In this document: one piece after another, positions 4,201 through 50,335 of the stretch
Numbering within the stretch: position 1 is the stretch's first letter
Layout: each line of letters begins with the position of its first letter
NCBI GenBank assembly: GCA_022842995.1
Contig: JALHOM010000001.1
Coordinates: forward strand, 10,444-74,443
Source of the DNA: Candidatus Saccharimonadota bacterium
GTDB taxonomy: Bacteria > Patescibacteriota > Saccharimonadia > Saccharimonadales > 2-12-FULL-41-12
Length of the DNA: 64,000 nt
Direction: 5' to 3'
Position numbers and translations under genes: made by a program
The notes under the pieces: generated by a model
Databases searched by the model: none
The model's input: only the letters and a program-made list of their open reading frames with translations
Told to the model about the DNA's origin: nothing

Positions 4201-4232
4201 CCAGCCACACCTCCTAATATTCAATAACTATT

Positions 4233-4266
4233 AAGCAGCCGCTCTAACCGGTTGCTTATTTTTTTT
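4233..4266 (+). terminator. rho-independent terminator after the 3631-4200 gene
   Basis: Stem AAGCAGCCG / CGGTTGCTT (9 bp, one G-U) with loop CTCTAAC, followed by ATTTTTTTT. Confidence 0.45.
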
Positions 4267-4315
4267 GCAAGACCAATGCCAAGATACTGTCGCTACCTTT
4301 CAGTAGCGAAGAAAC

Positions 4316-7300
4316 CTAACCCCGAAGCGAAATTTCACCTTCAGCACCGGCATCATTACTGATCTCGGTGTGACCTGTTGGCGAAGGTCCATCTATAGAA
4401 GCCTGGGCATGGGGGGTCTGGGGACCATAACTCATCGAATTTATATCTGTCATAGGTCGATTATTATTTGATACGACAGATGAATCGTTATCTAAATCTG
4501 TGGCATTAGATGACGGACTGTAGGGTCGCCGTGGAATGTCATTCGTAAATCGACTAGGCCCAGATGCATCAGAGTTACTTGGTGTCATCATGTCCGAAGC
4601 GCCAAGATTATCTCTCAAGCTTTGGCCTTGATCATTAAGACCGTCCGAAGACTGTCCAGTTGCATCTTGAACCCCTGCTTGATACTGTTGCCCCGAAAAC
4701 TGGCCCGAATCATCCATAGGACTAGAGGCGGTAGACCGATATTCAGAAAGCTGACCCGAGGCTGGATTTAATGTGGGATCTACCGACTGCGTTGCGTCTG
4801 CCATTGGCGCAGGATAAGGATTAGCCTGTGGCTGAGCCACAGGAGCTTGAGCGGCAGGATATGGCGGGGGCACTGGACCTTGAGTATCTTTCTTGGCCAA
4901 CCACTGGTCTAAGAATGAGCCGCCGGCGCCACCTGGATCTTGTGAAGCAAATGGATCGCCCGCTCCAGCCGGTGGCACACCTGGCTGTTGTTGACCCGTC
5001 GCATCGGTGTCGGTGTCCATACGACTAAAGATTTCCTTCTCTACCACCTGTCGAGGACGGCCGTATTTGGCTGCCGACAACTGCTTCAGGGCATCACCCA
5101 ACTCTTTATTCGGCGTACCTAATGGTGCGATTGTTGCCATACTAAATGGCTGCGTTGGCACTCCACCAATGAGAGTGCGAACGATCGTGTTATAGTTCGG
5201 AATTCTGAGCAGATCATCACCGTCAAACAGTGGCTGGAAGTAGCGCGACAGTACGTCGACATCATTCTGGCCAATACGAAACGCCACTGTCGTACCAATA
5301 TTTCCAAATACCGCGTCACGAATTTCTTCGGTTAACTGCGTCGTAAACTGGTTAGCCACTACCAAGTTAAGCCGGTATTTTCGAGCCTCAGACATAATTG
5401 TCGCAAACGAATCGGTCGAGAAGTTCTGGAACTCATCGACGTACAAACAGAAGTCCACGCGCTGATCTTCGGGGATATTTGCTCGGCTCATAGCAGCCGC
5501 TTGGAACTTCATGACAAAGATCATGCCCAGCAGCTTAGAGTTAAGTTCACCGGTCCGCCCTTTGCTGAGATTAACGATCAAAATCTTCTTATTATCCATG
5601 ATGTCACGCAGATCAAACGAACTATCAATCTGACCGATGATATTACGCATCATACCGTTGCTTAAGAACGCACCGAACTTACTCACGAACCAACTAACCA
5701 CCTCGCCGAAGTCGTTCGATCTCTTTGATTGAGGCATTTCTTTATACCAAAAATCCAAGACATTACGGTCAGTGACGTACTGAAGCTTAGACTTAACATA
5801 ATCGTCGTCTCTAAAGAGTTTCGGAATATCGATAAAGCTACCACCATCAGGGCCAGCCATAACCGTCAGAGCCGCCATCCTGAATAAGTGTTCATAGCGC
5901 GGGCCAATAATTCCCTGCCTTTGCGGGTCATACAGCTTATAAAGGACGTTGATAACTTCCTGAATAACGAAGTCTTTCTCGTCGTCGTTCTCGGCTTCAA
6001 AGATATTGAGACCAAGTGGATAGTCGGTGTCCGCGGGACAGAAATATATAACGTCTTCAGTTCGTTCCTTCGGAACCATAGAAATAAGTGTTTCTGCCGT
6101 ATCGCCGTGCGGATCAATAAATGCAAAACCATTCCCCATTAACATGTCCTGGAGCGCGAGGTTTTCGAGGAACGTAGACTTACCTGTACCTGTCTGACCA
6201 ACAACATAGATATGTCGTTGACGATCCTGGAGCGCCAGTCGAATCGGCTTTTTTATGCCACGGAATAAGTTGTAACCCAGCAATAATCCGTGTTCAGGCA
6301 CATTTCGAGGTCCATCTACTTGCTTGGAATCTTGGCGTGTCAGCTGCGATGTCGGAATATCTTCTTGTTGTGGAAAATGAAACAGCGTCGCTAATTCTAC
6401 GGAGTTTAAGATGTTCTTATTATGATGTTGAGGGAACAAACGTAGTATATAAGCTGTTGTAAATTCCTCTATATTTCCCGATGCAGACCACTTAAAGCCG
6501 TTTTTGCCCGGTGCATCAAATAGTGAGAAGCTCGCTACAACGTTGCTCAATATATCTTGAGCTCGTTGGTGAATATTAGAGGACACGACAATTCGAAGTG
6601 TCGTCTCGAAACCGGGGTGCCTTGTCTTGTCATCAATAGAATCAAGGATCTGCTGCTCATTTGCCGAAAGCTCTTTACCCGGACTACTGCCACCAGAACC
6701 TTTATCTTCAGGCGGCTTCGTGAGAGCATAAGCTACCTGCCCCATCCACCAGAAAATCTGAGAGACACCTTTTTTCTGCTTCTCACCTTTTCGCTTCTTG
6801 CTGGCGTGACCACTTGCCGATTTAGTCCATGAACTCTTTGCTGGTCGCACCAAGATCTGAATACCAACTCCGTCCTGTTTATCAAGTGCAGAAAGGGCGT
6901 TTAGAACAGACTGCATCGGATCACGCTTAATGTCTCTATACGTGGCAATCGGGTAAGCGTACTTCTCTTTCAGTGTTAGCTCACCACCGACAACCCCCGT
7001 TATGCCACCAACTTTATTGAACAAGTTATAATCAGCAACTTCTTCAAGTCGTGCCGAAGGATATGCACTTACCACCGCCTGCTTAACAACTTCAATTAAG
7101 GTTAGCGGCACCGACGCATAAAGATTTACCACACCATGTAAACATACTATTTCAAAGCCAATATGTCTTTGCCCATAGAAACTACTCTTGAAACCTGGCT
7201 GCGTCGTGCTCGAAATAATGTTGTAAATAAATTCTGCTTTTGAGATATTCTCATCTGTTACATCACGAATATCTCGTGAACCTATGTCAGTATCATCGCT

Positions 7301-7456
7301 AGGTGGCGGCAGATGGATTAGCAGCGTAACCATTTTTAGGCCACGCTCATAATTCTTCTGTTCTCTTAAGACTTTTCGAGACTGAAAGAAAATAATTGGG
7401 GCAACAATCAGCACCAACACCAGGACAAAAACAGCAAAGAATATTAATATGCCCAT
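4316..7456 (-). CDS. VirD4/TraG/TraD-like (FtsK-HerA superfamily) P-loop ATPase with an N-terminal TM helix, a ~400-aa non-ATPase N-terminal region and a ~260-aa low-complexity Q/P/S/D/G-rich C-terminal tail
   Basis: Walker A is VVGQTGTGKST, followed by FIDPHGD. Walker B is LYVDEFQNF, followed by RKYRLNLVVANQ, which fits the coupling-protein arrangement. N-terminal TM is ILIFFAVFVLVLVLIVAPIIFF. Confidence 0.6.
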   Translation of the reverse strand: MGILIFFAVFVLVLVLIVAPIIFFQSRKVLREQKNYERGLKMVTLLIHLPPPSDDTDIGSRDIRDVTDENISKAEFIYNIISSTTQPGFKSSFYGQRHIGFEIVCLHGVVNLYASVPLTLIEVVKQAVVSAYPSARLEEVADYNLFNKVGGITGVVGGELTLKEKYAYPIATYRDIKRDPMQSVLNALSALDKQDGVGIQILVRPAKSSWTKSASGHASKKRKGEKQKKGVSQIFWWMGQVAYALTKPPEDKGSGGSSPGKELSANEQQILDSIDDKTRHPGFETTLRIVVSSNIHQRAQDILSNVVASFSLFDAPGKNGFKWSASGNIEEFTTAYILRLFPQHHNKNILNSVELATLFHFPQQEDIPTSQLTRQDSKQVDGPRNVPEHGLLLGYNLFRGIKKPIRLALQDRQRHIYVVGQTGTGKSTFLENLALQDMLMGNGFAFIDPHGDTAETLISMVPKERTEDVIYFCPADTDYPLGLNIFEAENDDEKDFVIQEVINVLYKLYDPQRQGIIGPRYEHLFRMAALTVMAGPDGGSFIDIPKLFRDDDYVKSKLQYVTDRNVLDFWYKEMPQSKRSNDFGEVVSWFVSKFGAFLSNGMMRNIIGQIDSSFDLRDIMDNKKILIVNLSKGRTGELNSKLLGMIFVMKFQAAAMSRANIPEDQRVDFCLYVDEFQNFSTDSFATIMSEARKYRLNLVVANQFTTQLTEEIRDAVFGNIGTTVAFRIGQNDVDVLSRYFQPLFDGDDLLRIPNYNTIVRTLIGGVPTQPFSMATIAPLGTPNKELGDALKQLSAAKYGRPRQVVEKEIFSRMDTDTDATGQQQPGVPPAGAGDPFASQDPGGAGGSFLDQWLAKKDTQGPVPPPYPAAQAPVAQPQANPYPAPMADATQSVDPTLNPASGQLSEYRSTASSPMDDSGQFSGQQYQAGVQDATGQSSDGLNDQGQSLRDNLGASDMMTPSNSDASGPSRFTNDIPRRPYSPSSNATDLDNDSSVVSNNNRPMTDINSMSYGPQTPHAQASIDGPSPTGHTEISNDAGAEGEISLRG

Positions 7457-7459
7457 AGC

Positions 7460-7855
7460 CTAATTGCCCTCTGAAACCTTAATATCTTTGTTGTATCGTT
7501 TCTTCAAGTAATCGGCCTTCGCCCTACTAATCTCTTGTTGCTGGATGAAGGGGTTGGTAGCGGTTCTGGCCGCGATTTCCTTCAGGTGATTAACCCACTC
7601 CTTCTCGATAACATCTACATCGTTGGCTTCTGGCGGTATAGAACTGATCTGCTGCGCAAGCTTTGGCGTTACCGCAAAAGGGTCAGCGGGCGCCACGGCC
7701 GGCGGAACCTGGGCAGGAGCAGCAGGATCAAGCGGTGGAGCCATAGAAGGTATTGCTGGTGCTGCAGCAGGAGCGCTTGAGTCTAGCGCACCATCATTAT
7801 CTTGGGGCGTGTTCGAACCTGGGACTGGTAAAAAACTATTTTGATCCATTATCAA
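7460..7855 (-). CDS. small Pro/Ala-rich protein, translationally coupled upstream partner of the ATPase (3-bp gap)
   Basis: The ORF ends 3 bp before the ATPase start codon. The central region is P/A-rich low complexity; the C-terminal ~45 residues are charged and helical. Confidence 0.45.
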   Translation of the reverse strand: MIMDQNSFLPVPGSNTPQDNDGALDSSAPAAAPAIPSMAPPLDPAAPAQVPPAVAPADPFAVTPKLAQQISSIPPEANDVDVIEKEWVNHLKEIAARTATNPFIQQQEISRAKADYLKKRYNKDIKVSEGN

Positions 7856-7999
7856 ATACTAAACTGCTCATGCTTCTACTTCGTTAGGCGCGTTCAAACA
7901 AGTGCGCATTCTTCCCTGGATTATAGCACATATCACAATAAAAATCAGCATCCTGACAAGTGCGTAAATTCAGATCACAAAGAAGGATAAAACTGACCT

Positions 8000-8329
8000 T
8001 CAGAATTTATTGATATAGATGTAGGAAATAAGCATTAAAAGGCCGAGCAGCAGTATATCGCCTAATACGATTCCGCCACTTGATTGGAACAATAAAATCA
8101 AAGTTAAGCCAACCGCAAAGACGATGGATATAGTACGATGTTTCGTACTTGGGGTGCTCAGAAAAAATAATTTCATAAAAAGCGATGCAAATAAAAATCC
8201 AGCTATGAATACAAGCAAGACAGGGACCATCAATAGGCCGACGGGCAAATCTCTTGGATCGGTTAGCCCAAAAAATACGACTCCAATAGCCACTGTTGCT
8301 ACTAGTAGCATGGACATCTTAACTATCAC
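8000..8329 (-). CDS. small integral membrane protein (3 predicted TM helices)
   Basis: 109-aa ORF with three hydrophobic segments. Confidence 0.45.
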   Translation of the reverse strand: MIVKMSMLLVATVAIGVVFFGLTDPRDLPVGLLMVPVLLVFIAGFLFASLFMKLFFLSTPSTKHRTISIVFAVGLTLILLFQSSGGIVLGDILLLGLLMLISYIYINKF

Positions 8330-8880
8330 GATCTTTCTTGTCCTTTACGACTACTTTAATCTATATTCAAGACATAATCGTTTGAGAAATATCATACATA
8401 TTAAAAAAACAAAAACGCCTCGTGTATTAGTGTACCCTTTTTCAAGACGTTTTTGCTTACAAATTGTGGATTGATATTTAGAGGCCGGGACGATAAAACC
8501 GCTCCATTAAATAAACTATTTAGCGCTTATCGTCGACCGAGCCTTGACTGACCGCTCATCATTGCTTTAAAGGCAACTTTGAGCGTTATTTTTAAATGTT
8601 TTTATGTTCAACATTCATGCTCGTATACTAGCGCATTATGCCGCTTATGTCAATCCTTATTATAGACTTATCAACAACGTTCATCTGTAAATTAAAGGCG
8701 ATTCTATGTTGTGATCAATACAATATTAATTTTTTGCTATTGATATAATCCTCATTTAGACATAGGTTAAACTATAAAAAAGTATATCCATCGTGAATAA
8801 CTTTTCAATAAAATCCTAGCCTCATAAGGCCCAAATTTTCCAGACCCGAACAACTGATCCTGATGCTCATTTTGTTAAAT

Positions 8881-8910
8881 CTGTGTCGCGATCGCGACAC
8901 AGATTTAATA
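8881..8910. repeat. 30-bp perfect palindrome AAATCTGTGTCGCGATCGCGACACAGATTT in a long non-coding region
   Basis: Read directly from the sequence. It equals its own reverse complement and is centred on CGATCG. Confidence 0.9.
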
Positions 8911-9783
8911 TTTTTTGCTGATTCGATCATAGACTTTAGCAACCGAATCAAATTCTCAGGACTACATGATAATTAATTTTAATCCTGTATTTGTTTATTA
9001 AGCATATACATTAATCAATATTTTATCTATGGCGTTCGGCTTTAAGCGCGATATAACCAAGTATTTTCATGTTATCAATATCATGATGGTCTTTGTATCG
9101 ACATTTATAAATAGAAGTCGACCAATAACATTTTCTAGCAGGAAAAATTATCCGACCAACATTTCGCATAAAAATTCCTAAGAATGATTCATGGCCATTC
9201 AAATCCCCTCACCCGCCAAGTCTTCCAGCTAGGGCATCTTCCAAGCCTATCCTTATTTTTTGAAACCACCTTTTTACTAAAACGAGTGATTTTGCCATGC
9301 AGCATCGAGCCTGAATTTCATGAACAGGAAACCATAAAGATACAGTCGATAAGCTTTATTGGGTTAATTAAACTACGCGATTACATATTAATTTCATGGA
9401 TTATGAATGAGGTTTAACATAAACATTTTGAGCACTCATAAGCATAAAGTTTATGATTCAAAATATTGCATTTTTTGGCATACATTTATTGAATAAATAA
9501 TCTGTGGAAAACTTATGCACATATTGTACTCATTTCTTTATTGACAGGTTAAATCTCTCACAGTAATATGGGGTTAGCACTTGAATAAAAAAAGTGCTCA
9601 AAAACAAAAACGTCTCTGTTAACAACGGCTTCTCGCAAGCCGTTGTTCCATAACACTGGGACGTTCGATAACAGAAAATTATAAATAAAAACCGCAGAAA
9701 ATAACCCCGCAGCATAAGCTACGGGGTTGTTTTTATATTAAGGTAATTGTTCTTTTGCAAACCTGGGGTATACTTTCAGACAC

Positions 9784-11304
9784 ATGAAAACCAGATCCAA
9801 AATTCAGACAATCATCGAAGCATCTAATGGCGGTGTGATAGTCGATATTGAATGTCATATTTCAAATTCCTTACCAAACATCGTAATTGTTGGTTTTGCC
9901 AATCGATCGGTCGACGAAGCCAAAGAACGCATCCGCGGAGCTTTAGCCTCCAGCAATATCCAATTACCGAAAAAACGAATTACCGTCAATTTAGCTCCTG
10001 CCGACCTACCTAAAGAAGGTTCCTATTTTGATCTTCCGATCACTCTTGGCATTTTAACTGAGAGCGGGATTATTTCTCCAGGACCAATCAAAGACACCGC
10101 TTGTTTTGGAGAAATTGGACTCGACGGGTCGATACGCCCTGTTCGCGGAATCATCGGAAAAATCCTAAATGCGCAGAAACTCGGCTTTAATAAATTCCTT
10201 ATTCCCGAAGACAACTGCGATCAGGCGCGGCTGATACCTGGCGTTACTATTATTACGGCCAATACAATAAAAGGACTGGTCTCGTGCCTTAATGATCAAT
10301 CTAGTATATATGCGATCGATACTGGCGAAGGCAAACTACCTATGACTCCCCCCGCCAACCAAAATAGCGCAAACTCGATTGACGACGTTATAGGCCAACA
10401 GCACGCCAAACGTGCTCTCGTGATTGCAGCGGCCGGACACCACAACATCATGCTCAGTGGCCCACCGGGTGCGGGAAAATCAATGCTAGCAAACACTATT
10501 ACAAGTATCATGCCTCCCCTGACCTTAACCGAGATTCTCGAAACAACCCATATTCACAGCCTGGCTAGCCGAAACTACGACCAGATCATCCATGAGCGAC
10601 CGGTTCGCTCGCCTCATCATAGTGCCAGCGCAATCGCCGTAATCGGCGGCGGACAAAACCCGAGACCGGGTGAAATTAGCCTAAGTCACAACGGTGTTTT
10701 AGTTTTTGACGAATTTCCGGAGTTCAATCGGCAAGTCATCGAAGCCCTTCGGCAACCGCTGGAAGATAAGGTTATCAGTGTTGCCAGGGCCAAAGATACC
10801 GCCAACTTCCCTGCCGATTTTCTTCTCATAGCTACCGCTAACCCCTGCCCCTGCGGCTTTTTTGGAACAAGCAAAGAGTGTTCTTGCCTCCCATATCAGA
10901 TCACAAATTACCAACGGAAAATCTCTGGACCAATAATCGACCGTATCGACCTTTACGTCGATGTCGACGAGGTAGAGCACGCCTCTATATTGAAGACGCA
11001 GGCCTCTGAGCAAGCTCCCCGACTGTCCACACAGATAAAGGACGCTCGCGACAGGCAATTATCTAAGCGAGGAAAATTAAACTCGAGATTAAGCGGAAAA
11101 GACTTCCGAGACAGCAATCTACTTGCAGCCGAGGCCAAGAAGTACCTTGACGACGCCAGCAACCCCCTCGGACTGTCCGCCAGAAGTTATATAAGAGTTC
11201 TACGCATTGCTCGGACGATAGCCGATCTTGAGTTGTCAGAGAAGATTGAAGAACATCACGTCGCTGAAGCCCTGCAGTATCGGAAACGACATCAGGCACT
11301 ATAG
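9784..11304 (+). CDS. comM: YifB/ComM family Mg-chelatase-like AAA+ ATPase (competence protein ComM)
   Basis: N-terminal Lon-protease-like domain, Walker A GPPGAGKS, and a C-terminal Mg-chelatase subunit ChlI-like region. The whole-length pattern is typical of ComM. Confidence 0.85.
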   Translation: MKTRSKIQTIIEASNGGVIVDIECHISNSLPNIVIVGFANRSVDEAKERIRGALASSNIQLPKKRITVNLAPADLPKEGSYFDLPITLGILTESGIISPGPIKDTACFGEIGLDGSIRPVRGIIGKILNAQKLGFNKFLIPEDNCDQARLIPGVTIITANTIKGLVSCLNDQSSIYAIDTGEGKLPMTPPANQNSANSIDDVIGQQHAKRALVIAAAGHHNIMLSGPPGAGKSMLANTITSIMPPLTLTEILETTHIHSLASRNYDQIIHERPVRSPHHSASAIAVIGGGQNPRPGEISLSHNGVLVFDEFPEFNRQVIEALRQPLEDKVISVARAKDTANFPADFLLIATANPCPCGFFGTSKECSCLPYQITNYQRKISGPIIDRIDLYVDVDEVEHASILKTQASEQAPRLSTQIKDARDRQLSKRGKLNSRLSGKDFRDSNLLAAEAKKYLDDASNPLGLSARSYIRVLRIARTIADLELSEKIEEHHVAEALQYRKRHQAL

Positions 11305-12495: not shown

Positions 12496-12530
12496 TAAAA
12501 AACCCTGGCATAATCCAGGGTTTTTTATTT
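12496..12530 (+). terminator. rho-independent terminator of the infC-rpmI-rplT operon
   Basis: Stem AAAAACCCTGG / CCAGGGTTTTT with loop CATAAT, followed by TTTTATTTT. Confidence 0.6.
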
Positions 12531-12627
12531 TGTCAGACTATCTATAAGCCGGGTTTTGTTCCCGCACCTTTTGATGACTTATTTTTAAACTTTGTAAAAA
12601 AGGATTAAATCAGCAAAAGGTGCGGGA

Positions 12628-13090
12628 GCCAATCATCTATCTAGTCCATCAATTACTCAATGGATCAAGCGGCTTTTACGGTCTGACTTCGGCGGGAAAC
12701 CTTTGAAGACAGACCTCCTTGCAACAGACAGGGTTTACCTACTGATCATGTCACCATGATCTGTTGTGGGCTCTTACCCCACTCTTTTCACCCTTACCCT
12801 CACACCCCTGCACCCAATCTCAGCCAGCAAGCAAAGCTTGCTGCGCCAGATTGTAGGGCTATTGCTACGTCAAAGCCTTGCGAGATTCAGTCGACGTATT
12901 CAAATACGTCTCCTTCGAATTTCTCAGACTTTTCCTAGCACTAGCCTCTTGCAGAGGCGTGAGGGCGGTATTGTTTCTGTGGCACTTTCCCTAGAGTTAC
13001 CTCTGGTTGCCGTTAGCAACTGTCATTCCCTACGTTGCCCGGACTTTCCTCCCGTGCCTTGTAAGGCACGGGCGATTGGCCGATAGTCTA
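12628..13090 (-). ncRNA. rnpB: RNase P RNA, bacterial type (rnpB)
   Basis: The minus strand contains the universally conserved P4 motif GAGGAAAGTCCGGGC, preceded by a P3 hairpin (CCCGTGCCTTACAAGGCACGGG). It also contains GGGTAAGGGTGAAAAGAGTGGGGTAAGAGCCCAC, matching E. coli AGGUAAGGGUGAAAGGGUGCGGUAAGAGCGCACC. The 5' GCCAATC and 3' GATTGGC can form P1. The overlapping + ORFs (12756-12938, 12766-13086) are spurious. Confidence 0.7.
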
Positions 13091-13128
13091 ACTCTCCTAG
13101 TATACCACCCGAAATTTACGATAGTTGT

Positions 13129-13803
13129 TTACTCAATCTGAGAATCAAGACATTCATTAACCATGCTATCGGCCAACTTATTTAGCTCGCGAGGTACGTG
13201 CGTAAAAGTTACTTTGCGAAACTCCAAAGCCAAAGTTTTCACCGACTCATAGACCGGCCATAGGTCACGGTTTTTCACTTTATAAACGCCCTTCATCTGG
13301 TTCACTACCAGCAAACTATCCATGTGAACCTGAACTTCTTGAATATTAAGCGATCGACATTTCTCTAACCCCACCTTCAAACCTTGATACTCCGCCTGAT
13401 TGTTCGTAGTAATTCCTAGGTATTTTGAGTCCTTGTGGAGCAAATTATCTTCTAGGTCATAGATCCCGTAGCCGATAGCCGATGGACCCGGGTTGCCACG
13501 CGAACCACCGTCGGTAAATAATTTTACGACGTTAGTTTTATTATTGGTAGCTACGCTAACCTCTAGTCCAAGGTTGAGTTGCGAGTCGTTATCCACATCA
13601 TTAAATTTATGAATATTCTTAAGCGCAAACTCACGCTCCTCGTTTTTGGTTACGTCAGTAGCGGTTAAAAACCACTGCTGCCCCGTATGCCACTGAGTTT
13701 CCCCGAACCAGACCTTAACAGGTATGATCACCCTGTCATTCGTCGCGCCCTTCCAATTAGTGTAATTAATTACGATTTTTTTATTTTTGCCTGTCATACT
13801 CAT
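13129..13803 (-). CDS. RNase H (type 1)-like protein with an uncharacterised ~95-aa N-terminal domain; start moved to the internal Met (MSMTGKNKK)
   Basis: C-terminal half has TDGGSRGNPGPSAIGYG ... NNQAEYQGL ... ELNKLADSM, the RNase HI D-E-D-D scaffold. The 5' 120 nt of the track ORF overlaps a tRNA-derived fragment and is probably not coding. Confidence 0.55.
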   Translation of the reverse strand: MSMTGKNKKIVINYTNWKGATNDRVIIPVKVWFGETQWHTGQQWFLTATDVTKNEEREFALKNIHKFNDVDNDSQLNLGLEVSVATNNKTNVVKLFTDGGSRGNPGPSAIGYGIYDLEDNLLHKDSKYLGITTNNQAEYQGLKVGLEKCRSLNIQEVQVHMDSLLVVNQMKGVYKVKNRDLWPVYESVKTLALEFRKVTFTHVPRELNKLADSMVNECLDSQIE

Positions 13804-13862
13804 TCCATAATACCACGCTCGTTTTAGCAAGACGACCAGAGTTATGCAATAATAAATACATC

Positions 13863-13898
13863 GATGTGGCGCAGATCGCAACCGCGTACGGCTGGGGT
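13863..13898 (+). pseudogene. degenerate copy of the 5' half of tRNA-Pro (D-arm plus anticodon arm)
   Basis: GATGTGGCGCAG...GCGTACGGCTGGGG matches the tRNA-Pro at 14124-14199 in two blocks of 13 and 14 identical nt, with a divergent D-loop. Confidence 0.4.
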
Positions 13899-14123
13899 GA
13901 GAAATGCCAGTGGCATTTCGCAAGGCCGGAAACTGATTTTAAGCTATGCTTAAAGTAAGTTGAGGCGGGTGAAGAGATTTAGTAAATCTCTGCAAGAAGA
14001 CTTTCTTCATCAAACTTGTTTAATTGAATGAAATCTTGGGGTGGCTGAAAGTGACCGCGGAACGTGACCGTGAGGTACCGAAATGGCTAAACCCCTCAAG
14101 ATAATGTGAGATAATAGACGCAT

Positions 14124-23407: not shown

Positions 23408-24988
23408 CTACTTTTTGACGGCTTTTTCCGTAACATCAAACTTATCCAAATACTTCCCAAAAAGTAATCGAGTCTGTGAGTTCAAAGCTGCCATAGAGTT
23501 ATACAAAATTGTAGTTACTGGCAATAGGACCCACTGAAGCGCCATAAAAACGCCGTGACGCTTCTTGTACCTCTCAGGCTTGGGTGGCAAGGACTTGAAG
23601 CTGAGATACATCGTCACCACCAAACCCACCATGGCAATCCGTTGTATGGTGCTAATAACCGACGGTAGTTGATTGGATGCAATATCGTCTGGGTTGAATA
23701 ATATCGGAACAAAGCCAGCAAACGCCAAAATCAGCGGAGCAGTTGCCCAGCTAAGATGACTCTCCATTAACCGCAACAGCTTAGCCAGTTTATCGAAGGT
23801 CGGAATATTGTTCGGCGTATTAAAGGCCTTGGTCCACACGTAGGCGATGTCCGAAGCACCCCAAGCCCAGCGACGTATCTGGATAAATTGCGCCTTCAAG
23901 GTCCGCCGATAGCCCTCAGCTAATACGGCATCCTGATAAATCGGCACATAGATCGGGTAAACCTCGTGTCGACCATCGTAACGAAAATACGTCCGCCAGA
24001 ATTGGTGACCATCCTCCACGATAGTGCGCGCGCTCCAGTAATTGGTATCGATCAACGCGGCCATACTTTGAGCGTGAGAAGAGAAATTACGCATCATGTG
24101 CTGGCGCAAGCTGAGCGTGATATTCCAAAACGAGTTACCAGTCGCGATGACGCGCATCAGTGCCGGCGCATCCCAGATGTTATTGGTATAGATCGGAATT
24201 GGCTGGAAAGAAACATATTTTGGCTCTGGCACAAGACAAAAAACATAGGTCAGTGCCGCGATATAAAATTTATGCGGTCGGTTATCTGAATCCAAAGTTG
24301 TGACCTGCACGTTGATCGGGTCAATCTTCCACTTCTTGAGCTTCTTTTCTAAGATACGGGCAGCATAGCTGATATTGCCGCCTTTGCCACGCACTTCATT
24401 CGGTGTAACCGGGTGCTTGATCGCCTCGGCATGCATAAATTTCTTGCCATATTTTTTTACCAGTTCTAAGCAAGCTGCTTCAGATCGGGCGCCGTCGCGC
24501 TCTTCGTAGGCAAAAGCCAAAATAACCTTTTTCATGTCGTATTCAGACGCCAAAACAGATTGGACCGTCGGCTCCAAGATATCCAGACCCTCGTTATAGG
24601 CCGCGATCAGCATGATATGCACTGCTTCAGACGGCTTGACCTTTGCGGGATATTTTTTGAGTCTCTCTATATTACGAATATGCCAATCTGGTGCATTTTT
24701 GGTCTTTACTTCCCCGCTCTCGATATCTTTTAACAGATCAGTCCACGGCGCTTTTTCGTGGCGTTTCATGCTGGCGTAACCCTGCAAAACCCGCACGTTA
24801 AGTGCGATAGTGCGAATGAACCATAGCAAAATAAAAGCTACGATAAAAAATACCGCCACCAATGGACTAAGCAGAGCTAAAACGAATGGCAAGGCCAACA
24901 TTGACCAACTCAAAATTGCCGGTAATTTCTCGAAAAACTTATAAGAAGCGGTTTTCTCGTGCTGAAGAGGAATTTCGATGTTTTTCAT
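23408..24988 (-). CDS. processive family-2 glycosyltransferase (cellulose/chitin/hyaluronan synthase-like), membrane-embedded
   Basis: LDSDN motif, a QxxRW-type motif (QIRRWAWG), and N- and C-terminal TM helices. Confidence 0.7.
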   Translation of the reverse strand: MKNIEIPLQHEKTASYKFFEKLPAILSWSMLALPFVLALLSPLVAVFFIVAFILLWFIRTIALNVRVLQGYASMKRHEKAPWTDLLKDIESGEVKTKNAPDWHIRNIERLKKYPAKVKPSEAVHIMLIAAYNEGLDILEPTVQSVLASEYDMKKVILAFAYEERDGARSEAACLELVKKYGKKFMHAEAIKHPVTPNEVRGKGGNISYAARILEKKLKKWKIDPINVQVTTLDSDNRPHKFYIAALTYVFCLVPEPKYVSFQPIPIYTNNIWDAPALMRVIATGNSFWNITLSLRQHMMRNFSSHAQSMAALIDTNYWSARTIVEDGHQFWRTYFRYDGRHEVYPIYVPIYQDAVLAEGYRRTLKAQFIQIRRWAWGASDIAYVWTKAFNTPNNIPTFDKLAKLLRLMESHLSWATAPLILAFAGFVPILFNPDDIASNQLPSVISTIQRIAMVGLVVTMYLSFKSLPPKPERYKKRHGVFMALQWVLLPVTTILYNSMAALNSQTRLLFGKYLDKFDVTEKAVKK

Positions 24989-47338: not shown

Positions 47339-50335
47339 TTATAAGATTGGGGGGAGCGTAGCTATATACTGATAATCACCACTGGTTGGTCTACTGGTTG
47401 GTCTGGTAGCCGAATTGGCATGATACACCTCTGGAGTGAACACGAATACTTCTGCCGCACGGGACTTGTTAGTGCCCACAAAATCCTCTTGAGTCAGCGA
47501 ATCTCGAATTGATGGGCCAATCCTTCCTAAAATCACCTCGTTAGCCACAAATGACCCAAAGACCGTAAGCTGAGTACCGCAATCTGTAAAGCGCTGATTA
47601 GAATTACTTATCGGAGCCCCCATGCCACTAGTACAGGTAAATATTTTACCCTTCGACCCATCTGCTATAGGCTGAGCGACAAACATACCGTCAAGTTGAG
47701 ATACCGCCCTGTCGATATAAATATTGCCTCGTACGAACATCCTAAAGCTACCTACATTAGCGGGGTTTCCGTTGAAAGTCGTATTGCTCGTAATATTACC
47801 CGTGATATAAACATCGCCATCGACAAACATTGAATGTCGCTTATTTCCAAGATCGACTGCCCCGGCGGTAGTTACATTTCCCCCAGAAAATAGAGTCTGT
47901 TTATTTGTTTCTAAGATATTAAGATCCAAACTATTATTATTCATACTGCCAGTAGACTGCAGATCATCGCTGTCCGAAGCGACCCGCTGAGTCGTAAAGT
48001 AATCTTTTAGACACTTATTGGCTTCGTAGTTACCACCCCAGTACGGTGAAAGTAGATCGCCTCCGCCAGTAGCACCGGAAATAGTGGTTAAGCCAGCTGG
48101 TGCGATTGGCGCTGCCCCTCGCAGCGATGCGCTGAAGAAGCCGTTAACAGACCCTGGGGCCATAGCAGCAAGCTGGGTGCCTGCACCCTTTTTACCCTCT
48201 GCGAAAGGACGCATGTTAGCTTTGATATCCGAGTTCAGACTGACGTCGCACGAGCCATCGGCCCCCGGAAAGACCGCTCCAGCAACTACGTCACCACCGA
48301 AAGTCTTCACGTATGGCTTATCCAATCGACTAACACAATCCTCCGTGCTATCCGACTCATCTGGATCGGTCGCAATGATATCACCTCCAGGGCCGTGCCA
48401 ACCAGCCGCCGGAGAAACAGTTATTCTTCCGCAATACTCTAAAGCAGGATCAATTGGTCCGGTGTAAGTATCCTGCCAAGGTGCCGGCCTCGTTGGGCCA
48501 AATGCCATACCGTCTGTATTCAAACTCTGGTTTACAGCAGGATTAAAGTTAGCTACAACCGAACCATTATCCTTACGAAGTATCGATCGGTTAATTGTAA
48601 TCCCAGGAACCGAGCCTGAACCGCCATCAGGAGTCTTGCTCGCGTTACTCGAGAACGCAATCCGAGTTGGACTCTCAGGGTCAGGACCTAATTGCACCGC
48701 ATCTGCATTCGGCACAATCTGGAACGGCAGGTATGTATCAATGGATCCACAAATGCCCCCGAGAGCGTATTTGTCAAAGAGGTACGGGTATACTCCCCAA
48801 GAACTAATACTATTCGGTGCGGTAACGCTAATCGTAGCCGTCGCCATATTAGCGGCGGTTGGCGCCGCCGGGTTGGCTGGCGCTGGAATTGGGCCAATTG
48901 GAGTAGTTGGGTGCGTAACCCTATTCCCTGCCGGATAATCGTACGCTGCCCTGAAAGAATTTGCCGGAATAGGCAGTCTGCCCGTGTTGGTCAACCTTAC
49001 CGTGGCGGTAAAAGCGGACCCAGCTTGAACACCAGTTGGGCGAGATGGGTGTACTGAGGGGCTTACACTGATTAGTGTGCATGTTGCTGAGTAGCAAGTG
49101 GTGTCTATAAGGTCAACGGGTCCAATGTATTGTGGGTTTATTTTGTCACCCCTTGGGTTCGTGTCATACACATTGAGTTCCAGTCTCCAGCCCTGATTCA
49201 CATTATCATCCGCAGCCCATGGCCAAGGAATTAATACATCGCCTCGCTGGTTATCTAAGTCGAAGTTTTGAATTGGCGCAGAGGCACTGACACCCCCCGA
49301 TGTATATCGATGCTTGATCTCGCCATAAATCCTAACACCTGCGTTCGGATTATCTCTATCGACTAAATTCCTCACCCAGACTCCTTGACATGTGGCTTCC
49401 AGATTAAACGTAGGCCGGATTGGTTGCGCAGGACCAGTGCACGGAAGACTCTGATTGACTGCCGTGTCTACTATTCTCCATGTTGGCGTAGCTACAGTAG
49501 TGTCAAGAACCTGGAGCTCAAGATAGTAAGGTCCAGCCCCGCCAAGCGATACCGGAAAGCTATCAACCGAATCTGCTCTAGAAGTGTTAGCGACAACAAC
49601 ACTCGGAGAACCTGCTAAATCCCTCTTCAGTAAAATATATCTAATCGCCAATGAGGTATTTCTCTGTAAACCTAATGAAGTAAAATTCCTACAATCTAAA
49701 AAATTGATCGTTCCAGTATTTGGCTGCGCCGGTGGTGGAGGCGGTTCACGATAAGTTATAAATGTATACTGAGTAGTGCCGTTTGTAGGATTGATCGGTG
49801 CGACCGTCCATCCATAGCTCGGGTTATTTATGTATGCCCCATAAAGGGCACGAGCACCTGACGGCGTTCCCTGACCAGTGGCAGTAAAGGGTTGATTTGA
49901 GGTACCGCGAACACTTCTATCGCAGTCTAGCGCCCATTCACCAATTGGACCACCCGTAGGTTGAGATGTTCGACCGTAACCAAAAACAGCACTATGCGAG
50001 CCTTGATTACCGGCGCAAGAATTATCAATTTGCGTAAAATTTCCTGCTATAAATCGTCTACCGCTATCAAGGTCGTAAATATTGCCAGCCGGCGTAGATG
50101 GATTCACTGCTCGAATATAAACCGGAGTTGATCTAGGAGCCTCCCTCACAACGCCAGTTGAGCTCCTTATTCTAACGTCAATAACCGCACCTGCATAGCC
50201 ATGAATGGTAGCCCCGTTAGCTCCGCAATCGGCATACACTTTGCCGTTCGATACGATACCGCTGACCATAAAAAAACCGGAAAATAATACAAAAAATCCA
50301 ACGATCTTATGACTCAATGATAATGAACCAATCAT
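47339..50335 (-). CDS. large (998 aa) secreted/surface protein encoded directly upstream of the pilus operon; candidate pilus-associated adhesin
   Basis: N-terminal signal/TM. Gly/Asn/Thr-rich repeat-poor sequence with beta-rich low-hydrophobicity stretches. No catalytic motifs recognised. Confidence 0.45.
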   Translation of the reverse strand: MIGSLSLSHKIVGFFVLFSGFFMVSGIVSNGKVYADCGANGATIHGYAGAVIDVRIRSSTGVVREAPRSTPVYIRAVNPSTPAGNIYDLDSGRRFIAGNFTQIDNSCAGNQGSHSAVFGYGRTSQPTGGPIGEWALDCDRSVRGTSNQPFTATGQGTPSGARALYGAYINNPSYGWTVAPINPTNGTTQYTFITYREPPPPPAQPNTGTINFLDCRNFTSLGLQRNTSLAIRYILLKRDLAGSPSVVVANTSRADSVDSFPVSLGGAGPYYLELQVLDTTVATPTWRIVDTAVNQSLPCTGPAQPIRPTFNLEATCQGVWVRNLVDRDNPNAGVRIYGEIKHRYTSGGVSASAPIQNFDLDNQRGDVLIPWPWAADDNVNQGWRLELNVYDTNPRGDKINPQYIGPVDLIDTTCYSATCTLISVSPSVHPSRPTGVQAGSAFTATVRLTNTGRLPIPANSFRAAYDYPAGNRVTHPTTPIGPIPAPANPAAPTAANMATATISVTAPNSISSWGVYPYLFDKYALGGICGSIDTYLPFQIVPNADAVQLGPDPESPTRIAFSSNASKTPDGGSGSVPGITINRSILRKDNGSVVANFNPAVNQSLNTDGMAFGPTRPAPWQDTYTGPIDPALEYCGRITVSPAAGWHGPGGDIIATDPDESDSTEDCVSRLDKPYVKTFGGDVVAGAVFPGADGSCDVSLNSDIKANMRPFAEGKKGAGTQLAAMAPGSVNGFFSASLRGAAPIAPAGLTTISGATGGGDLLSPYWGGNYEANKCLKDYFTTQRVASDSDDLQSTGSMNNNSLDLNILETNKQTLFSGGNVTTAGAVDLGNKRHSMFVDGDVYITGNITSNTTFNGNPANVGSFRMFVRGNIYIDRAVSQLDGMFVAQPIADGSKGKIFTCTSGMGAPISNSNQRFTDCGTQLTVFGSFVANEVILGRIGPSIRDSLTQEDFVGTNKSRAAEVFVFTPEVYHANSATRPTSRPTSGDYQYIATLPPIL

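What the first reader, a model, noticed from the sequence alone, without database searches (positions are those of the whole stretch)
4316..8329. Orphan VirD4/TraG-like coupling ATPase with atypical domain extensions, co-transcribed with a Pro/Ala-rich small protein
The 1046-aa protein carries coupling-protein hallmarks: Walker A GQTGTGKST, DPHGD, hhhDEF Walker B, and a downstream R-x-x-R...Q box.

The catalytic core is embedded in an unusual architecture:
- an N-terminal TM helix
- about 400 aa of unassigned sequence
- a C-terminal ~260-aa Q/P/S/D/G low-complexity tail

No VirB4, VirB6, VirB8-11 or relaxase genes occur in the window. The only partners are a 131-aa Pro/Ala-rich protein (3-bp spacing) and a 3-TM protein.

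The ATPase lies near comM and a full type IV pilus locus. A stand-alone FtsK/VirD4-like translocase here could be part of a DNA-uptake or DNA-export route rather than classical conjugation. It could also be a remnant of an integrated element bounded by the adjacent 1.45-kb non-coding region.
Basis: partly seen in the sequence, partly recalled or inferred. Interest (0 to 1): 0.6.

Follow-up and report, generated by a model that had tools for sequence, protein, structure and literature searches.

The report
Core conjugation-type coupling ATPase of Saccharibacteria
This gene encodes the conserved, chromosomal version of a conjugation "coupling" motor found across the ultrasmall Patescibacteria; its counterpart by gene order in a cultivated relative is called essential in published transposon data, so it is not a leftover of a mobile element, but what it transports is still unknown.

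Summary
A 1046-aa ORF (4316-7456, minus strand) has one N-terminal TM helix, about 360 aa of previously unassigned sequence, a P-loop motor and a 233-aa low-complexity tail. A 131-aa Pro/Ala-rich ORF lies 3 bp upstream, preceded by a 109-aa four-TM ORF.

- **Motor:** by sequence it is a VirD4/TrwB-type coupling protein (T4CP).
- **"Unassigned" domain:** close relatives carry Pfam DUF8128 (PF26449). Its predicted fold matches only the N-terminal domain of VirB4 among solved structures.
- **Not atypical:** the same two-domain build occurs in the coupling-protein position, next to the relaxase and a separate second ATPase in the VirB4 position, on Bacillus and Embleya plasmids, and next to VirB6/VirB4-like genes in Bacillus phage G.
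- **Not a remnant:** the gene has native composition, is more conserved than its neighbours, is syntenic across Saccharibacteria and is present in many Patescibacteria classes.
- **Essentiality:** the gene at the same syntenic position in Southlakia epibionticum (SEML1_0142) is called essential at all Tn-seq time points. comEC, yifB/comM and a second T4CP paralogue are not.

Most likely it is a domesticated, relaxase-less coupling ATPase serving the essential T4SS encoded elsewhere. This is a new member of a known kind, with an open function.

The parts
4316..7456 (-). Whole gene: 1046-aa membrane-anchored T4CP-type ATPase of the DUF8128 family
   Evidence: ORF and translation. More than 6800 homologues, the best 120 at 73-97% identity, nearly all with precomputed PF26449, which names DUF8128.
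7385..7453 (-). N-terminal transmembrane helix (aa 2-24), followed by a basic stretch
   Evidence: Hydropathy. The AF2 model shows one long helix over aa 2-40.
6272..7336 (-). N-terminal alpha/beta domain (aa 41-395), DUF8128, with a VirB4-NTD-like fold
   Evidence: AF2 of the domain alone: pLDDT 90.3, pTM 0.87. In the Foldseek PDB search the top 14 hits are all TrwK/VirB4, E 1.4e-6 to 6e-4, TM about 0.44; the next hit is at E 1.3e-2. There is no sequence-level match to TrwK.
5018..6271 (-). Motor domain (aa 396-813): RecA-like P-loop core with an all-alpha insertion (about aa 490-607)
   Evidence: hhalign to TrwB gives 96% probability, E 3.7e-9. TrwB and DotL are the best PDB sequence hits. 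Foldseek TM-score 0.6-0.68 normalised to TrwB. Among 54 family members, TraG-D_C hits 52 and TrwB_AAD_bind hits 50.
6173..6199 (-). Walker A GQTGTGKST (aa 420-428)
   Evidence: G420 and K426 are invariant in 84 sequences.
5429..5452 (-). Walker B FCLYVDEF (aa 669-676)
   Evidence: D674 and E675 are invariant.
4319..5017 (-). C-terminal low-complexity, net-acidic tail (aa 814-1046). It has an FLDQWLAKK helix near its start and ends in GEISLRG.
   Evidence: Composition. Tail length is variable among orthologues, but short motifs near the end recur. A similar acidic tail and motif occur in a Bacillus plasmid homologue.
7460..7855 (-). 131-aa partner protein: disordered Pro/Ala-rich N-half and a conserved about 55-aa helical C-terminus (7463-7627)
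   Evidence: Translation. It is conserved by sequence at position -1 in 34 of 74 loci, usually within a few bp of the ATPase start codon (median about 3 bp). The Tn-seq call for the gene at this position, SEML1_0141, is GD/ES/ES with 0 insertions.
8000..8329 (-). 109-aa four-TM membrane protein, first gene of the conserved three-gene cassette
   Evidence: Translation and hydropathy. An HMM family is found in 34 Saccharibacteria loci, 29 of them at position -2. The gene at this position, SEML1_0140, is called NE/GD/GD.
7920..7928 (-). Extended -10-like box TGCTATAAT upstream of the 131-aa ORF: a possible promoter for the small ORF plus the ATPase
   Evidence: Read directly from the sequence. 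The consensus scan did not list it because no good -35 box is present. Inference only.
4232..4268 (.). GC-rich hairpin with a T-run between the convergent ATPase gene and the 189-aa gene: a terminator-like site
   Evidence: listed on the + strand.

Best explanation
The gene encodes a vertically inherited, chromosomal descendant of the coupling protein (T4CP) of monoderm conjugation systems.

**Anatomy.** It should be a hexameric, ATP-driven translocase. One TM helix holds it at the cytoplasmic face of the membrane. Its VirD4/TrwB-like motor is preceded by a domain shaped like the N-terminal domain of VirB4.

**Inferred mechanism.**
- In VirB4 that N-terminal domain contacts VirB3, VirB8 and a second VirB4. 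Here it would dock the motor onto the inner-membrane platform of the Patescibacterial T4SS, which is encoded elsewhere in the genome next to dnaA.
- The small protein encoded 3 bp upstream would act as an accessory or regulatory partner, as TrwA does for TrwB.
- The long disordered acidic tail with short conserved motifs near its end would be a flexible tether that recruits a partner or substrate, as the TraD tail binds TraM.
- Saccharibacteria lack relaxases, so the cargo is probably not a relaxase-piloted plasmid. It would be protein or nucleic acid exchanged with the host bacterium.

**Shown:** domain anatomy, family membership, conservation, synteny, the context of relatives, and the published essentiality of the gene at the same syntenic position.

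**Inferred:** docking to the T4SS, the roles of the partner and the tail, and the nature and direction of the cargo.
For: 1. **T4CP-type motor**
   - Pfam T4SS-DNA_transf is above its cut-off, 24-24.9 bits against 20.1. TraG-D_C sits at its cut-off of 22: 21.9 bits for the full protein, 22.3 for aa 1-813.
   - Family members hit TraG-D_C (52/54), TrwB_AAD_bind (50/54, best 1.7e-13) and T4SS-DNA_transf (26/54). None hits the VirB4 family CagE_TrbE_VirB.
   - TrwB and DotL are the best solved sequences.
   - hhalign to TrwB gives 96% probability, against 8.5% to TrwK.
2. **VirB4-like N-terminal domain**
   - The confident AF2 model of the domain alone matches only TrwK/VirB4 chains in the PDB.
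   - The full-length model aligns collinearly with TrwK over about 880 columns.
3. **The same two-domain protein sits in the coupling-protein position of conjugative systems**
   - B. subtilis plasmid: the 885-aa homologue is directly upstream of a Replic_Relax relaxase, with a separate 847-aa ATPase in the VirB4 position.
   - Embleya plasmid: PrgI, then a 643-aa ATPase in the VirB4 position, then the 812-aa homologue, then the relaxase, then NlpC/P60.
   - My N-domain HMM hits both homologues (5e-39 and 1e-22). It does not hit the adjacent ATPases.
   - Bacillus phage G: gp156 is a full-length homologue directly after a TrbL/VirB6-like, a small hydrophobic and a P-loop_TraG/VirB4-like gene.
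4. **Core gene**
   - Fixed synteny across Saccharibacteria and presence in many Patescibacteria classes.
   - Core identity of 75% where yifB shows 53%; native GC and codon use.
5. **Published genetics (Wang et al. 2023, PMC10633639, Table S1)**
   - The genes at the same syntenic position are SEML1_0140, 0141 and 0142.
   - They are called NE/GD/GD, GD/ES/ES and ES/ES/ES.
   - The T4SS cluster SEML1_0006-0019 is also essential, and the authors recognised no coupling protein in it.
6. **Tail.** The acidic tail and an 'IDxDGxL' motif are shared with the Bacillus plasmid homologue.
Against: - The gene is not linked to any T4SS gene here or in the 80 Patescibacteria loci examined. Neighbours elsewhere are housekeeping genes.
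- T4CP-like genes were reported in 2,918 of 3,035 Patescibacteria genomes, against 2,417 for VirB4. Some genomes may therefore have the ATPase without a T4SS, although incomplete assemblies could explain this.
- The Se gene is called essential already at T0, whereas most T4SS genes are called growth-defective at T0 and essential later. This is a weak point, because genes with zero insertions also get the growth-defect call at T0.
- Orthology to SEML1_0142 rests on gene order, gene lengths and annotation, not on a sequence alignment.
- The VirB4-NTD resemblance is fold-level only, with TM about 0.44, and is not seen by profile comparison.
- No interaction was tested.
Confidence: 0.55

Rival explanations
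1. A T4SS-independent, essential housekeeping translocase. The three-gene cassette (four-TM protein, small helical protein, ATPase) would form its own minimal membrane machine that moves DNA, RNA or protein, exapted from a conjugative T4CP.
For: - It has its own conserved membrane and soluble partners.
- It always lies in housekeeping neighbourhoods and never next to T4SS genes in 80 loci.
- T4CP-like genes are more widespread than VirB4 in Patescibacteria.
- The Se gene is called essential from T0.
- Quinonero-Coronel et al. raise exaptation as a possibility.
Against: - Full-length relatives outside Patescibacteria sit in T4SS and relaxase contexts.
- The VirB4-like N-domain suggests docking to a T4SS platform.
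- A canonical, essential FtsK exists in S. epibionticum, so chromosome segregation is already covered.
- The four-TM partner is restricted to Saccharibacteria.
Confidence: 0.25
2. A divergent VirB4-type assembly ATPase, powering pilus or channel biogenesis rather than acting as a substrate-coupling protein.
For: - The best full-length solved match is TrwK/VirB4, and the N-domain matches only VirB4.
- In Bacillus phage 0105phi7-2 the homologue gp32 is the only such ATPase. It follows a weak VirB2-like gene and a two-TM gene, which is the virB2-virB3-virB4 order.
Against: - There are no sequence-level VirB4 family hits in 54 members, and hhalign to TrwK gives 8.5%.
- In plasmids and phage G a separate ATPase in the VirB4 position sits beside it. 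In phage G that ATPase is a Pfam P-loop_TraG hit.
- Saccharibacteria already have an essential VirB4, SEML1_0008.
Confidence: 0.1
3. A DNA-uptake (competence) motor working with ComM and the type IV pilus.
For: - It is adjacent to yifB/comM throughout Saccharibacteria and about 30 kb from a pilus locus.
- There is a weak NCBIfam hit to the archaeal DNA-translocating ATPase CedD, E 1.7e-8, over the Walker A region only.
Against: - In S. epibionticum comEC and yifB are non-essential, while the ATPase at this position is essential.
- yifB is divergently transcribed and separated by 1.45 kb that holds its own small transcription unit.
- The yifB adjacency was not seen in the loci from other classes: the yifB-sized neighbour cluster covers only 19 of 74 loci, and the neighbours scanned elsewhere are other housekeeping genes.
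Confidence: 0.05
4. A decaying remnant of an integrated conjugative element, or part of a HerA-type defence system.
For: - Motor-only relatives at 42-46% identity occur on mobile elements.
- PADLOC gives a motor-level hit to mad8, E 7e-15.
Against: - The 1046-codon ORF is intact and its catalytic residues are invariant.
- It is conserved more strongly than its neighbours and has native codon use.
- Synteny is conserved and no integrase, relaxase or repeat boundary was seen.
- No other defence genes are adjacent.
- The gene at the same position in Se is essential.
Confidence: 0.02

Closest known systems
Coupling-protein-position genes of monoderm conjugative elements with Replic_Relax relaxases (annotated 'DUF87 domain-containing protein' on Bacillus plasmids and 'type IV secretory system conjugative DNA transfer family protein' on Embleya/Streptomyces plasmids)
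   Same: - Full-length collinear homology covering both the N-domain and the motor.
- An acidic low-complexity C-terminal tail with a similar short motif in the Bacillus plasmid homologue.
   Different: - Those genes sit beside a relaxase and a second ATPase in the VirB4 position on plasmids.
- This one is chromosomal, has no relaxase, and is unlinked to T4SS genes.
- It is flanked by two lineage-specific small genes, and the gene at its position in S. epibionticum is essential.
- Identity is only 22-28%.
TrwB (R388), the VirD4 family of coupling proteins
   Same: - P-loop motor with an all-alpha insertion.
- hhalign 96% probability; Foldseek TM-score 0.6-0.68 normalised to TrwB.
- An N-terminal membrane anchor.
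- A small gene immediately upstream, as trwA is for trwB.
   Different: - TrwB has no roughly 360-aa N-terminal alpha/beta domain and no long disordered tail.
- TrwB works with the relaxase TrwC.
TrwK/VirB4 (R388)
   Same: - The same two-domain layout.
- The N-domain fold matches only VirB4 among solved structures.
   Different: - No sequence-level similarity in the N-domain.
- The motor is closer to T4CPs than to VirB4.
SEML1_0142 of Ca. Southlakia epibionticum ML1 (Wang et al. 2023, Table S1)
   Same: - The same gene order: rplT-rpmI-infC-yifB, then the TM gene, the small gene and the ATPase, then the roughly 190-aa gene, the DUF11 gene and gyrB-gyrA.
- Matching gene lengths and annotation.
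   Different: The paper's main text does not discuss this gene.
SEML1_0293-type paralogue (the second T4CP-like gene of Saccharibacteria)
   Same: The same architecture, inferred from candidate Saccharibacteria paralogues that align from about residue 2-90 onward at roughly 37-41% identity.
   Different: - It is non-essential in Tn-seq and sits next to a GNAT gene and cas9.
- It lacks the two upstream partner genes.

Membership tests
T4CP (VirD4/TrwB/TraG/TraD coupling proteins) | FtsK/HerA-superfamily P-loop motor with intact Walker A and B motifs | tested here: met
   GQTGTGKST at aa 420 and VDEF at aa 673. The catalytic residues are invariant in 84 sequences.
T4CP (VirD4/TrwB/TraG/TraD coupling proteins) | Profile-level match to T4CP-specific families | tested here: met
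   T4SS-DNA_transf is above its cut-off at 24-24.9 bits (cut-off 20.1). TraG-D_C sits at its cut-off of 22: 21.9 bits for the full protein and 22.3 for aa 1-813. This single protein is marginal, but 50-52 of 54 family members hit TrwB_AAD_bind or TraG-D_C. hhalign to TrwB gives 96%.
T4CP (VirD4/TrwB/TraG/TraD coupling proteins) | All-alpha domain inserted between Walker A and Walker B | tested here: met
   The AF2 model has seven helices at about aa 491-607 between the motifs. Relatives match TrwB_AAD_bind.
T4CP (VirD4/TrwB/TraG/TraD coupling proteins) | N-terminal membrane anchor | tested here: met
   One TM helix at aa 2-24.
T4CP (VirD4/TrwB/TraG/TraD coupling proteins) | Genetic association with a relaxase and/or T4SS channel genes | tested here: not met
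   None was found in the window (only 27 ORFs were scanned against Pfam) or in 80 Patescibacteria loci. The feature is met only in distant full-length relatives on plasmids and in phage G.
T4CP (VirD4/TrwB/TraG/TraD coupling proteins) | Required for substrate transfer through a T4SS | not testable with these tools
   This needs genetics or biochemistry.
VirB4 | N-terminal domain with the VirB4 fold preceding the ATPase domain | tested here: met
   Foldseek of the domain alone: the top 14 PDB hits are all TrwK/VirB4, E 1.4e-6 to 6e-4. This is fold-level evidence only.
VirB4 | Sequence-profile match to VirB4 families (CagE_TrbE_VirB, P-loop_TraG) | tested here: not met
   No CagE_TrbE_VirB hit in 54 members, and P-loop_TraG in 1 of 54. 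hhalign to TrwK gives 8.5%, over the Walker B region only.
VirB4 | Encoded beside VirB3 and channel genes | tested here: not met
   The upstream genes are a four-TM protein and a soluble protein with no family hits.
DUF8128 (PF26449) | Match to the Pfam model | tested here: inconclusive
   The local Pfam copy lacks this model. The precomputed annotation lists PF26449 for nearly all of the best 120 homologues, including the 97%-identical P0001. Membership is therefore very likely but was not scored directly.
FtsK/SpoIIIE | FtsK alpha/beta/gamma domains and a multi-TM N-terminus | tested here: not met
   FtsK_SpoIIIE scores 15.9-16.4 bits against a cut-off of 24. A canonical FtsK exists separately in S. 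epibionticum.

The most novel reading that the evidence does not exclude
The Patescibacterial T4SS may run as an import or feeding device. In that case this relaxase-less but essential coupling ATPase would be its motor. It would dock through a VirB4-like N-domain and pull host macromolecules, for example nucleic acids, into an epibiont that cannot make nucleotides. The family would also be an evolutionary intermediate that keeps a VirB4-type N-domain on a VirD4-type motor.
Probability: 0.12. Interest if true: 0.9.

Novelty: new member of a known kind. Interest (0 to 1): 0.5.

Why it matters
[quoted passage not shown] Its cargo and its coupling ATPase are unknown. The original study recognised no coupling protein in the cluster. 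A later survey treated the T4CP homologue of S. epibionticum as non-essential.

The evidence here separates two T4CP-like paralogues. The one at this locus corresponds by position to a gene that the published Tn-seq table calls essential, but which was not discussed. That gives a concrete candidate for the missing motor, with two candidate partners and a candidate docking motif. The question of what the T4SS transports becomes more directly testable.

The work also identifies DUF8128 as a VirB4-NTD-like domain. The same domain is found in the coupling-protein-position genes of two monoderm plasmids examined and in two Bacillus phage homologues.

Tried and rejected
- **Exact-sequence look-up** of the window protein found nothing.
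- **Profile comparison** of the family with TrwK found no N-domain similarity.
- **HMM of the 131-aa partner** does not reach the upstream ORFs of other Patescibacteria classes. Only a regex-level motif enrichment was found there.
- **Cluster look-up** of ten distant representatives gave almost no names.
- **IMG/VR scan** found only motor-only relatives.
- **Supplements of Quinonero-Coronel et al.** as held contain no SEML1 identifiers. I could not see which Se gene they scored as T4CP.
- **Rfam** gave nothing credible in the 1.45-kb spacer.
- **Rejected readings:**
  - FtsK substitute: a canonical FtsK is present.
  - Defence system: only motor-level PADLOC hits.
  - Integrated-element remnant.
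- **Not possible:** checking this genome itself for VirB4, VirB6 or a relaxase outside the window.

Full report
**1. What is there**

The window is a Saccharibacteria (TM7, Patescibacteria) chromosome segment. The closest homologues of the target protein come from Saccharibacteria assemblies.

On the minus strand lie three ORFs.
- A 109-aa ORF at 8000-8329.
- A 131-aa ORF at 7460-7855.
- A 1046-aa ORF at 4316-7456.
- The last two are 3 bp apart.

The large protein has these features.
- Walker A GQTGTGKST at aa 420.
- DPHGD at aa 448.
- Walker B VDEF at aa 673.
- One N-terminal TM helix at aa 2-24, followed by basic residues.
- A 233-aa S/P/A/D/G/Q-rich, net-acidic tail.

The 109-aa protein has four hydrophobic segments. 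The 131-aa protein has none.

The window also holds yifB/comM at 9784-11304, infC, RNase P RNA, and a pilM/pilB/pilT/pilC locus. No other VirB4-sized P-loop protein is present. No VirB6 or relaxase family hit was found among the 27 ORFs scanned against Pfam. About 30 mostly smaller ORFs were checked only for a P-loop motif.

**2. Family of the motor**

For this single sequence Pfam is marginal.
- T4SS-DNA_transf scores 24-24.9 bits, above its cut-off of 20.1.
- TraG-D_C sits at its cut-off of 22: 21.9 bits for the full protein and 22.3 for aa 1-813.

NCBIfam hits to TraD, TrbC, CD1115 and CedD are far below their cut-offs.

Across 54 diverse family members the signal is consistent.
- TraG-D_C hits 52 of 54.
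- TrwB_AAD_bind hits 50 of 54, with a best E-value of 1.7e-13.
- T4SS-DNA_transf hits 26 of 54.
- The VirB4 family CagE_TrbE_VirB is never hit.

Against solved structures, TrwB and DotL are the best sequence matches. Profile comparison gives 96% probability (E 3.7e-9, 272 columns) to TrwB. It gives only 8.5% to TrwK/VirB4. The motor is a VirD4/TrwB-type coupling ATPase.

**3. The 'unassigned' 360 residues**

Nearly all of the best 120 homologues carry precomputed PF26449, which names DUF8128. The local Pfam copy lacks this model.

AlphaFold2 with an 84-sequence alignment gave a confident full model (pLDDT 86, pTM 0.70). It also gave a confident model of aa 36-400 alone (pLDDT 90.3, pTM 0.87).

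Foldseek against the PDB gave two results.
- With the full model, R388 TrwK/VirB4 ranks first. The alignment is collinear over about 880 columns (E 2.4e-15). It ranks ahead of TrwB, which matches only the motor.
- With the N-domain alone, the top 14 hits are all TrwK/VirB4 chains (E 1.4e-6 to 6e-4, TM about 0.44). The next hit is at E 1.3e-2.

**4. This architecture is not peculiar to Patescibacteria**

tblastn against plasmids found full-length relatives at 73-92% coverage and 22-28% identity.

- **B. subtilis 27.5-kb plasmid.** The 885-aa homologue lies directly upstream of a replication-relaxation (Replic_Relax) relaxase. Conjugal transfer genes and a separate 847-aa ATPase in the VirB4 position follow.
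- **Embleya plasmid.** The order is PrgI, then a 643-aa ATPase in the VirB4 position, then the 812-aa homologue, then the relaxase, then NlpC/P60.
- **HMM test.**
  - The N-domain HMM hits the two homologues at 5e-39 and 1e-22.
  - The motor HMM hits them at 8e-57 and 1e-92.
  - The neighbouring ATPases are not hit by the N-domain HMM.
- **Bacillus phage G.**
  - gp156 is a full-length homologue (N-domain 2.7e-40, motor 1.4e-60).
  - It lies directly after gp153 (TrbL_4/VirB6-like), gp154 (small and hydrophobic) and gp155 (P-loop_TraG/VirB4-like).
- **Bacillus phage 0105phi7-2.** gp32 is another homologue. Small membrane proteins precede it, one weakly VirB2-like.
- **PHROGs.** phrog_5156 matches aa 74-812 at E 6e-82.
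- **Motor-only relatives.** Some relatives share the motor at 42-46% identity but lack the N-domain. One of them sits beside a Replic_Relax gene on a mobile element.

In the two plasmids examined, the N-domain plus this motor occupies the coupling-protein position of a monoderm conjugation gene set. This fits the published conclusion that the Patescibacterial T4SS derives from monoderm conjugation machinery.

**5. A core gene, not a remnant**

- Representative-level search finds 5,385 clusters at E <= 1e-30.
  - It returned Saccharibacteria and Berkel-, Woese-, Curtiss-, Levy-, Roizman-, Uhr-, Magasanikii-, Peregrini- and Gracilibacteria, plus Paceibacterota.
  - Identity in these is 37-41% over the full length.
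- In Saccharibacteria the context is fixed.
  - The order is rplT-rpmI-infC-yifB, a long spacer, the TM gene, the small gene and the ATPase.
  - These are followed by a convergent gene of about 190 aa, a DUF11/DUF7927 surface protein, and gyrB-gyrA.
- The ATPase core is more conserved than its neighbour yifB. Against three relatives the figures are 97 versus 84%, 75 versus 53% and 58 versus 43%.
- Composition is native.
  - GC is 0.467 against a window mean of 0.461 +/- 0.028.
  - GC3 is 0.445 against 0.457 +/- 0.051.
  - Codon-usage distance is the second lowest among genes longer than 1.5 kb.
- A neighbour-joining tree separates a Saccharibacteria clade containing the window from a second group. 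That group holds the other classes and second Saccharibacteria copies.

**6. Partners and tail**

- **The 131-aa protein.**
  - It is conserved by sequence at position -1 in 34 of 74 loci, usually within a few bp of the ATPase start codon (median about 3 bp).
  - Its N-half is variable, disordered and Pro/Ala/Gln-rich.
  - Its C-terminus is a conserved segment of about 55 aa (D-V-D-x-I-E-K-E-W-V ... D-P-F ... A-D-Y-L-K-K-R-Y).
- **Other classes.** The same-strand upstream ORF is not detectably homologous. In 14 of 24 cases it ends in a W-containing basic helix (LPxT ... RWLxEWxxKxxK). The same pattern occurs in 23 of 286 control ORFs. This is suggestive only.
- **The four-TM protein.** It forms a family present in 34 Saccharibacteria loci.
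- **The tail.**
  - It is long in the main Saccharibacteria clade (proteins of about 930-1100 aa, with some representatives up to 2006 aa). A few basal members and the other classes have proteins of about 780-870 aa.
  - Its sequence is variable, but short motifs near the end recur. These are GE(I/V)xLR, then in many orthologues (D/E)TIxIDxxGNL.
  - The window protein ends just after the first motif.
  - The B. subtilis plasmid homologue has an acidic tail containing LMIDSDGELIQ.
- **A possible promoter.** An extended -10-like box (TGCTATAAT, 7928-7920, minus strand) precedes the small ORF.

**7. Published genetics**

Wang et al. 2023 (PMC10633639) report Tn-seq for Ca. Southlakia epibionticum ML1. 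Table S1 shows the same gene order and near-identical gene lengths.

| Gene | Description | Calls at T0/T1/T2 | Notes |
|---|---|---|---|
| SEML1_0138 | yifB | NE | |
| SEML1_0140 | 354 bp | NE/GD/GD | |
| SEML1_0141 | 420 bp | GD/ES/ES | no insertions |
| SEML1_0142 | 3060 bp, 'TraM recognition domain-containing protein' | ES/ES/ES | 114 input insertions reduced to 11, 11 and 9; flagged as core and Patescibacteria-enriched |
| SEML1_0143, 0144 | downstream genes | NE | |
| SEML1_0145 | gyrB | ES | |

- Genes called essential at T0 form the paper's class I, which has 61 genes. SEML1_0142 is not mentioned in the main text.
- A second T4CP-like gene, SEML1_0293 (PF10412 at aa 402-719), is non-essential.
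- The essential T4SS cluster is SEML1_0006-0019, next to dnaA. [quoted passage not shown]
- Quinonero-Coronel et al. 2025 (PMC12102498) counted 5,713 T4CP homologues in 2,918 of 3,035 genomes, only 148 of them near virB4.
- The same survey described 'the t4cp homologue' of Se as non-essential. That description fits SEML1_0293, not SEML1_0142.
- Se has a canonical essential FtsK. Its comEC is dispensable.
- My assignment of the window gene to SEML1_0142 is positional. I could not retrieve the Se sequence.

**8. Mechanism**

The best-supported reading is a domesticated coupling ATPase.
- It is anchored by one TM helix.
- It docks through its VirB4-like N-domain to the T4SS inner-membrane platform.
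- The upstream small protein assists it. The analogy is trwA-trwB in R388. The stimulation of TrwB by TrwA is from my own knowledge.
- The disordered tail ends in a binding motif. The analogy is the TraD tail binding TraM, again from my own knowledge.

The rivals are listed with their evidence in the rival explanations. They are:
- a T4SS-independent essential translocase with its own membrane partner;
- a divergent VirB4-type assembly ATPase;
- a competence motor;
- a mobile-element or defence remnant.

The last two are contradicted by the genetics and the conservation data.

**9. Novelty**

T4CP-like genes unlinked to virB4 in Patescibacteria are already described, and the N-domain is already a Pfam DUF. 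Four points are added here.
- The VirB4-NTD-like fold of DUF8128.
- Its presence in the coupling-protein-position genes of two monoderm plasmids and in two Bacillus phage homologues.
- The conserved partner genes and tail motifs.
- The observation that the positional counterpart is essential in published data while the paralogue is not.

I rate it a new member of a known kind, with moderate interest.

**10. Limits**

- I could not check this genome outside the window.
- No interaction or multimer prediction was possible.
- Fold evidence comes from one program and one library.
- Part of the Patescibacteria taxon labelling of MAGs is unreliable. Several clearly related contigs are labelled 'Gammaproteobacteria'.

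Noticed in passing
window 9541-9745 (+), inside the 1.45-kb spacer 8330-9783: A candidate small RNA or leader upstream of yifB/comM.
- Promoter: TTGACA, 17 nt, TAATAT.
- About 75 nt conserved at 79-96% nucleotide identity in 17 other Saccharibacteria loci, most of whose ATPase cores are only 60-76% identical to the window's.
- Two hairpins, the second with 4-5 compensatory pairs.
- A variable A/C-rich stretch, then a lineage-specific intrinsic terminator just before yifB.
- No Rfam family matches.

   Followed up: partly
window 8873-8910: A perfect 17-bp-stem palindrome (TGTTAAATCTGTGTCGCGATCGCGACACAGATTTAATA) in the AT-rich spacer. It is terminator-like on the + strand.
   Followed up: no
window 12529-13091 (-): The RNase P RNA match spans 563 nt for a 367-position class A model, which implies large insertions.
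   Followed up: no
L088 (Bacillus phage G) 2857-8421, gp153-gp156: A giant phage carries a compact T4SS-inner-membrane-like module.
- gp153: TrbL/VirB6-like, six TM segments.
- gp154: small hydrophobic protein.
- gp155: P-loop_TraG/VirB4-like ATPase.
- gp156: DUF8128-type coupling ATPase.

   Followed up: partly
L039 3355-6003 and L045 3219-6044 (Saccharibacteria loci): The phenylalanyl-tRNA synthetase beta chain carries an inserted NlpC/P60 peptidase domain between the B3_4 and B5 domains (E 3.8e-5 and 1.5e-12).
   Followed up: no
L052, L071 and related Microgenomates-type loci: A neighbour family of about 816 aa lies 3-6 genes upstream of the small-ORF/ATPase pair in eight loci. The one member scanned (L052) is a ribonucleotide reductase. 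A cobalamin adenosyltransferase lies at position -2 in L052 and L071.
   Followed up: no
proteins P0123-P0132 and P0244, P0251, P0257, P0261, P0266: Some Saccharibacteria-type homologues have tails that bring the protein to 1,400-2,006 aa. A separate non-Patescibacteria group fuses the same motor to about 1,000 aa of N-terminal sequence that gives only faint TPR/ARM-like family hits.
   Followed up: partly
window 13129-13923 (-): A protein with RVT_3 and RNase H domains and a weak WYL hit. In some relatives the same gene also carries a Pterin_4a domain.
   Followed up: no
window 47339-50335 (-), 50338-51432 (-), 54953-56776 (-), 23408-24988 (-): Large ORFs of 364-998 aa with no Pfam hit. Two of them lie just upstream of the pilM-pilC gene run.
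   Followed up: no
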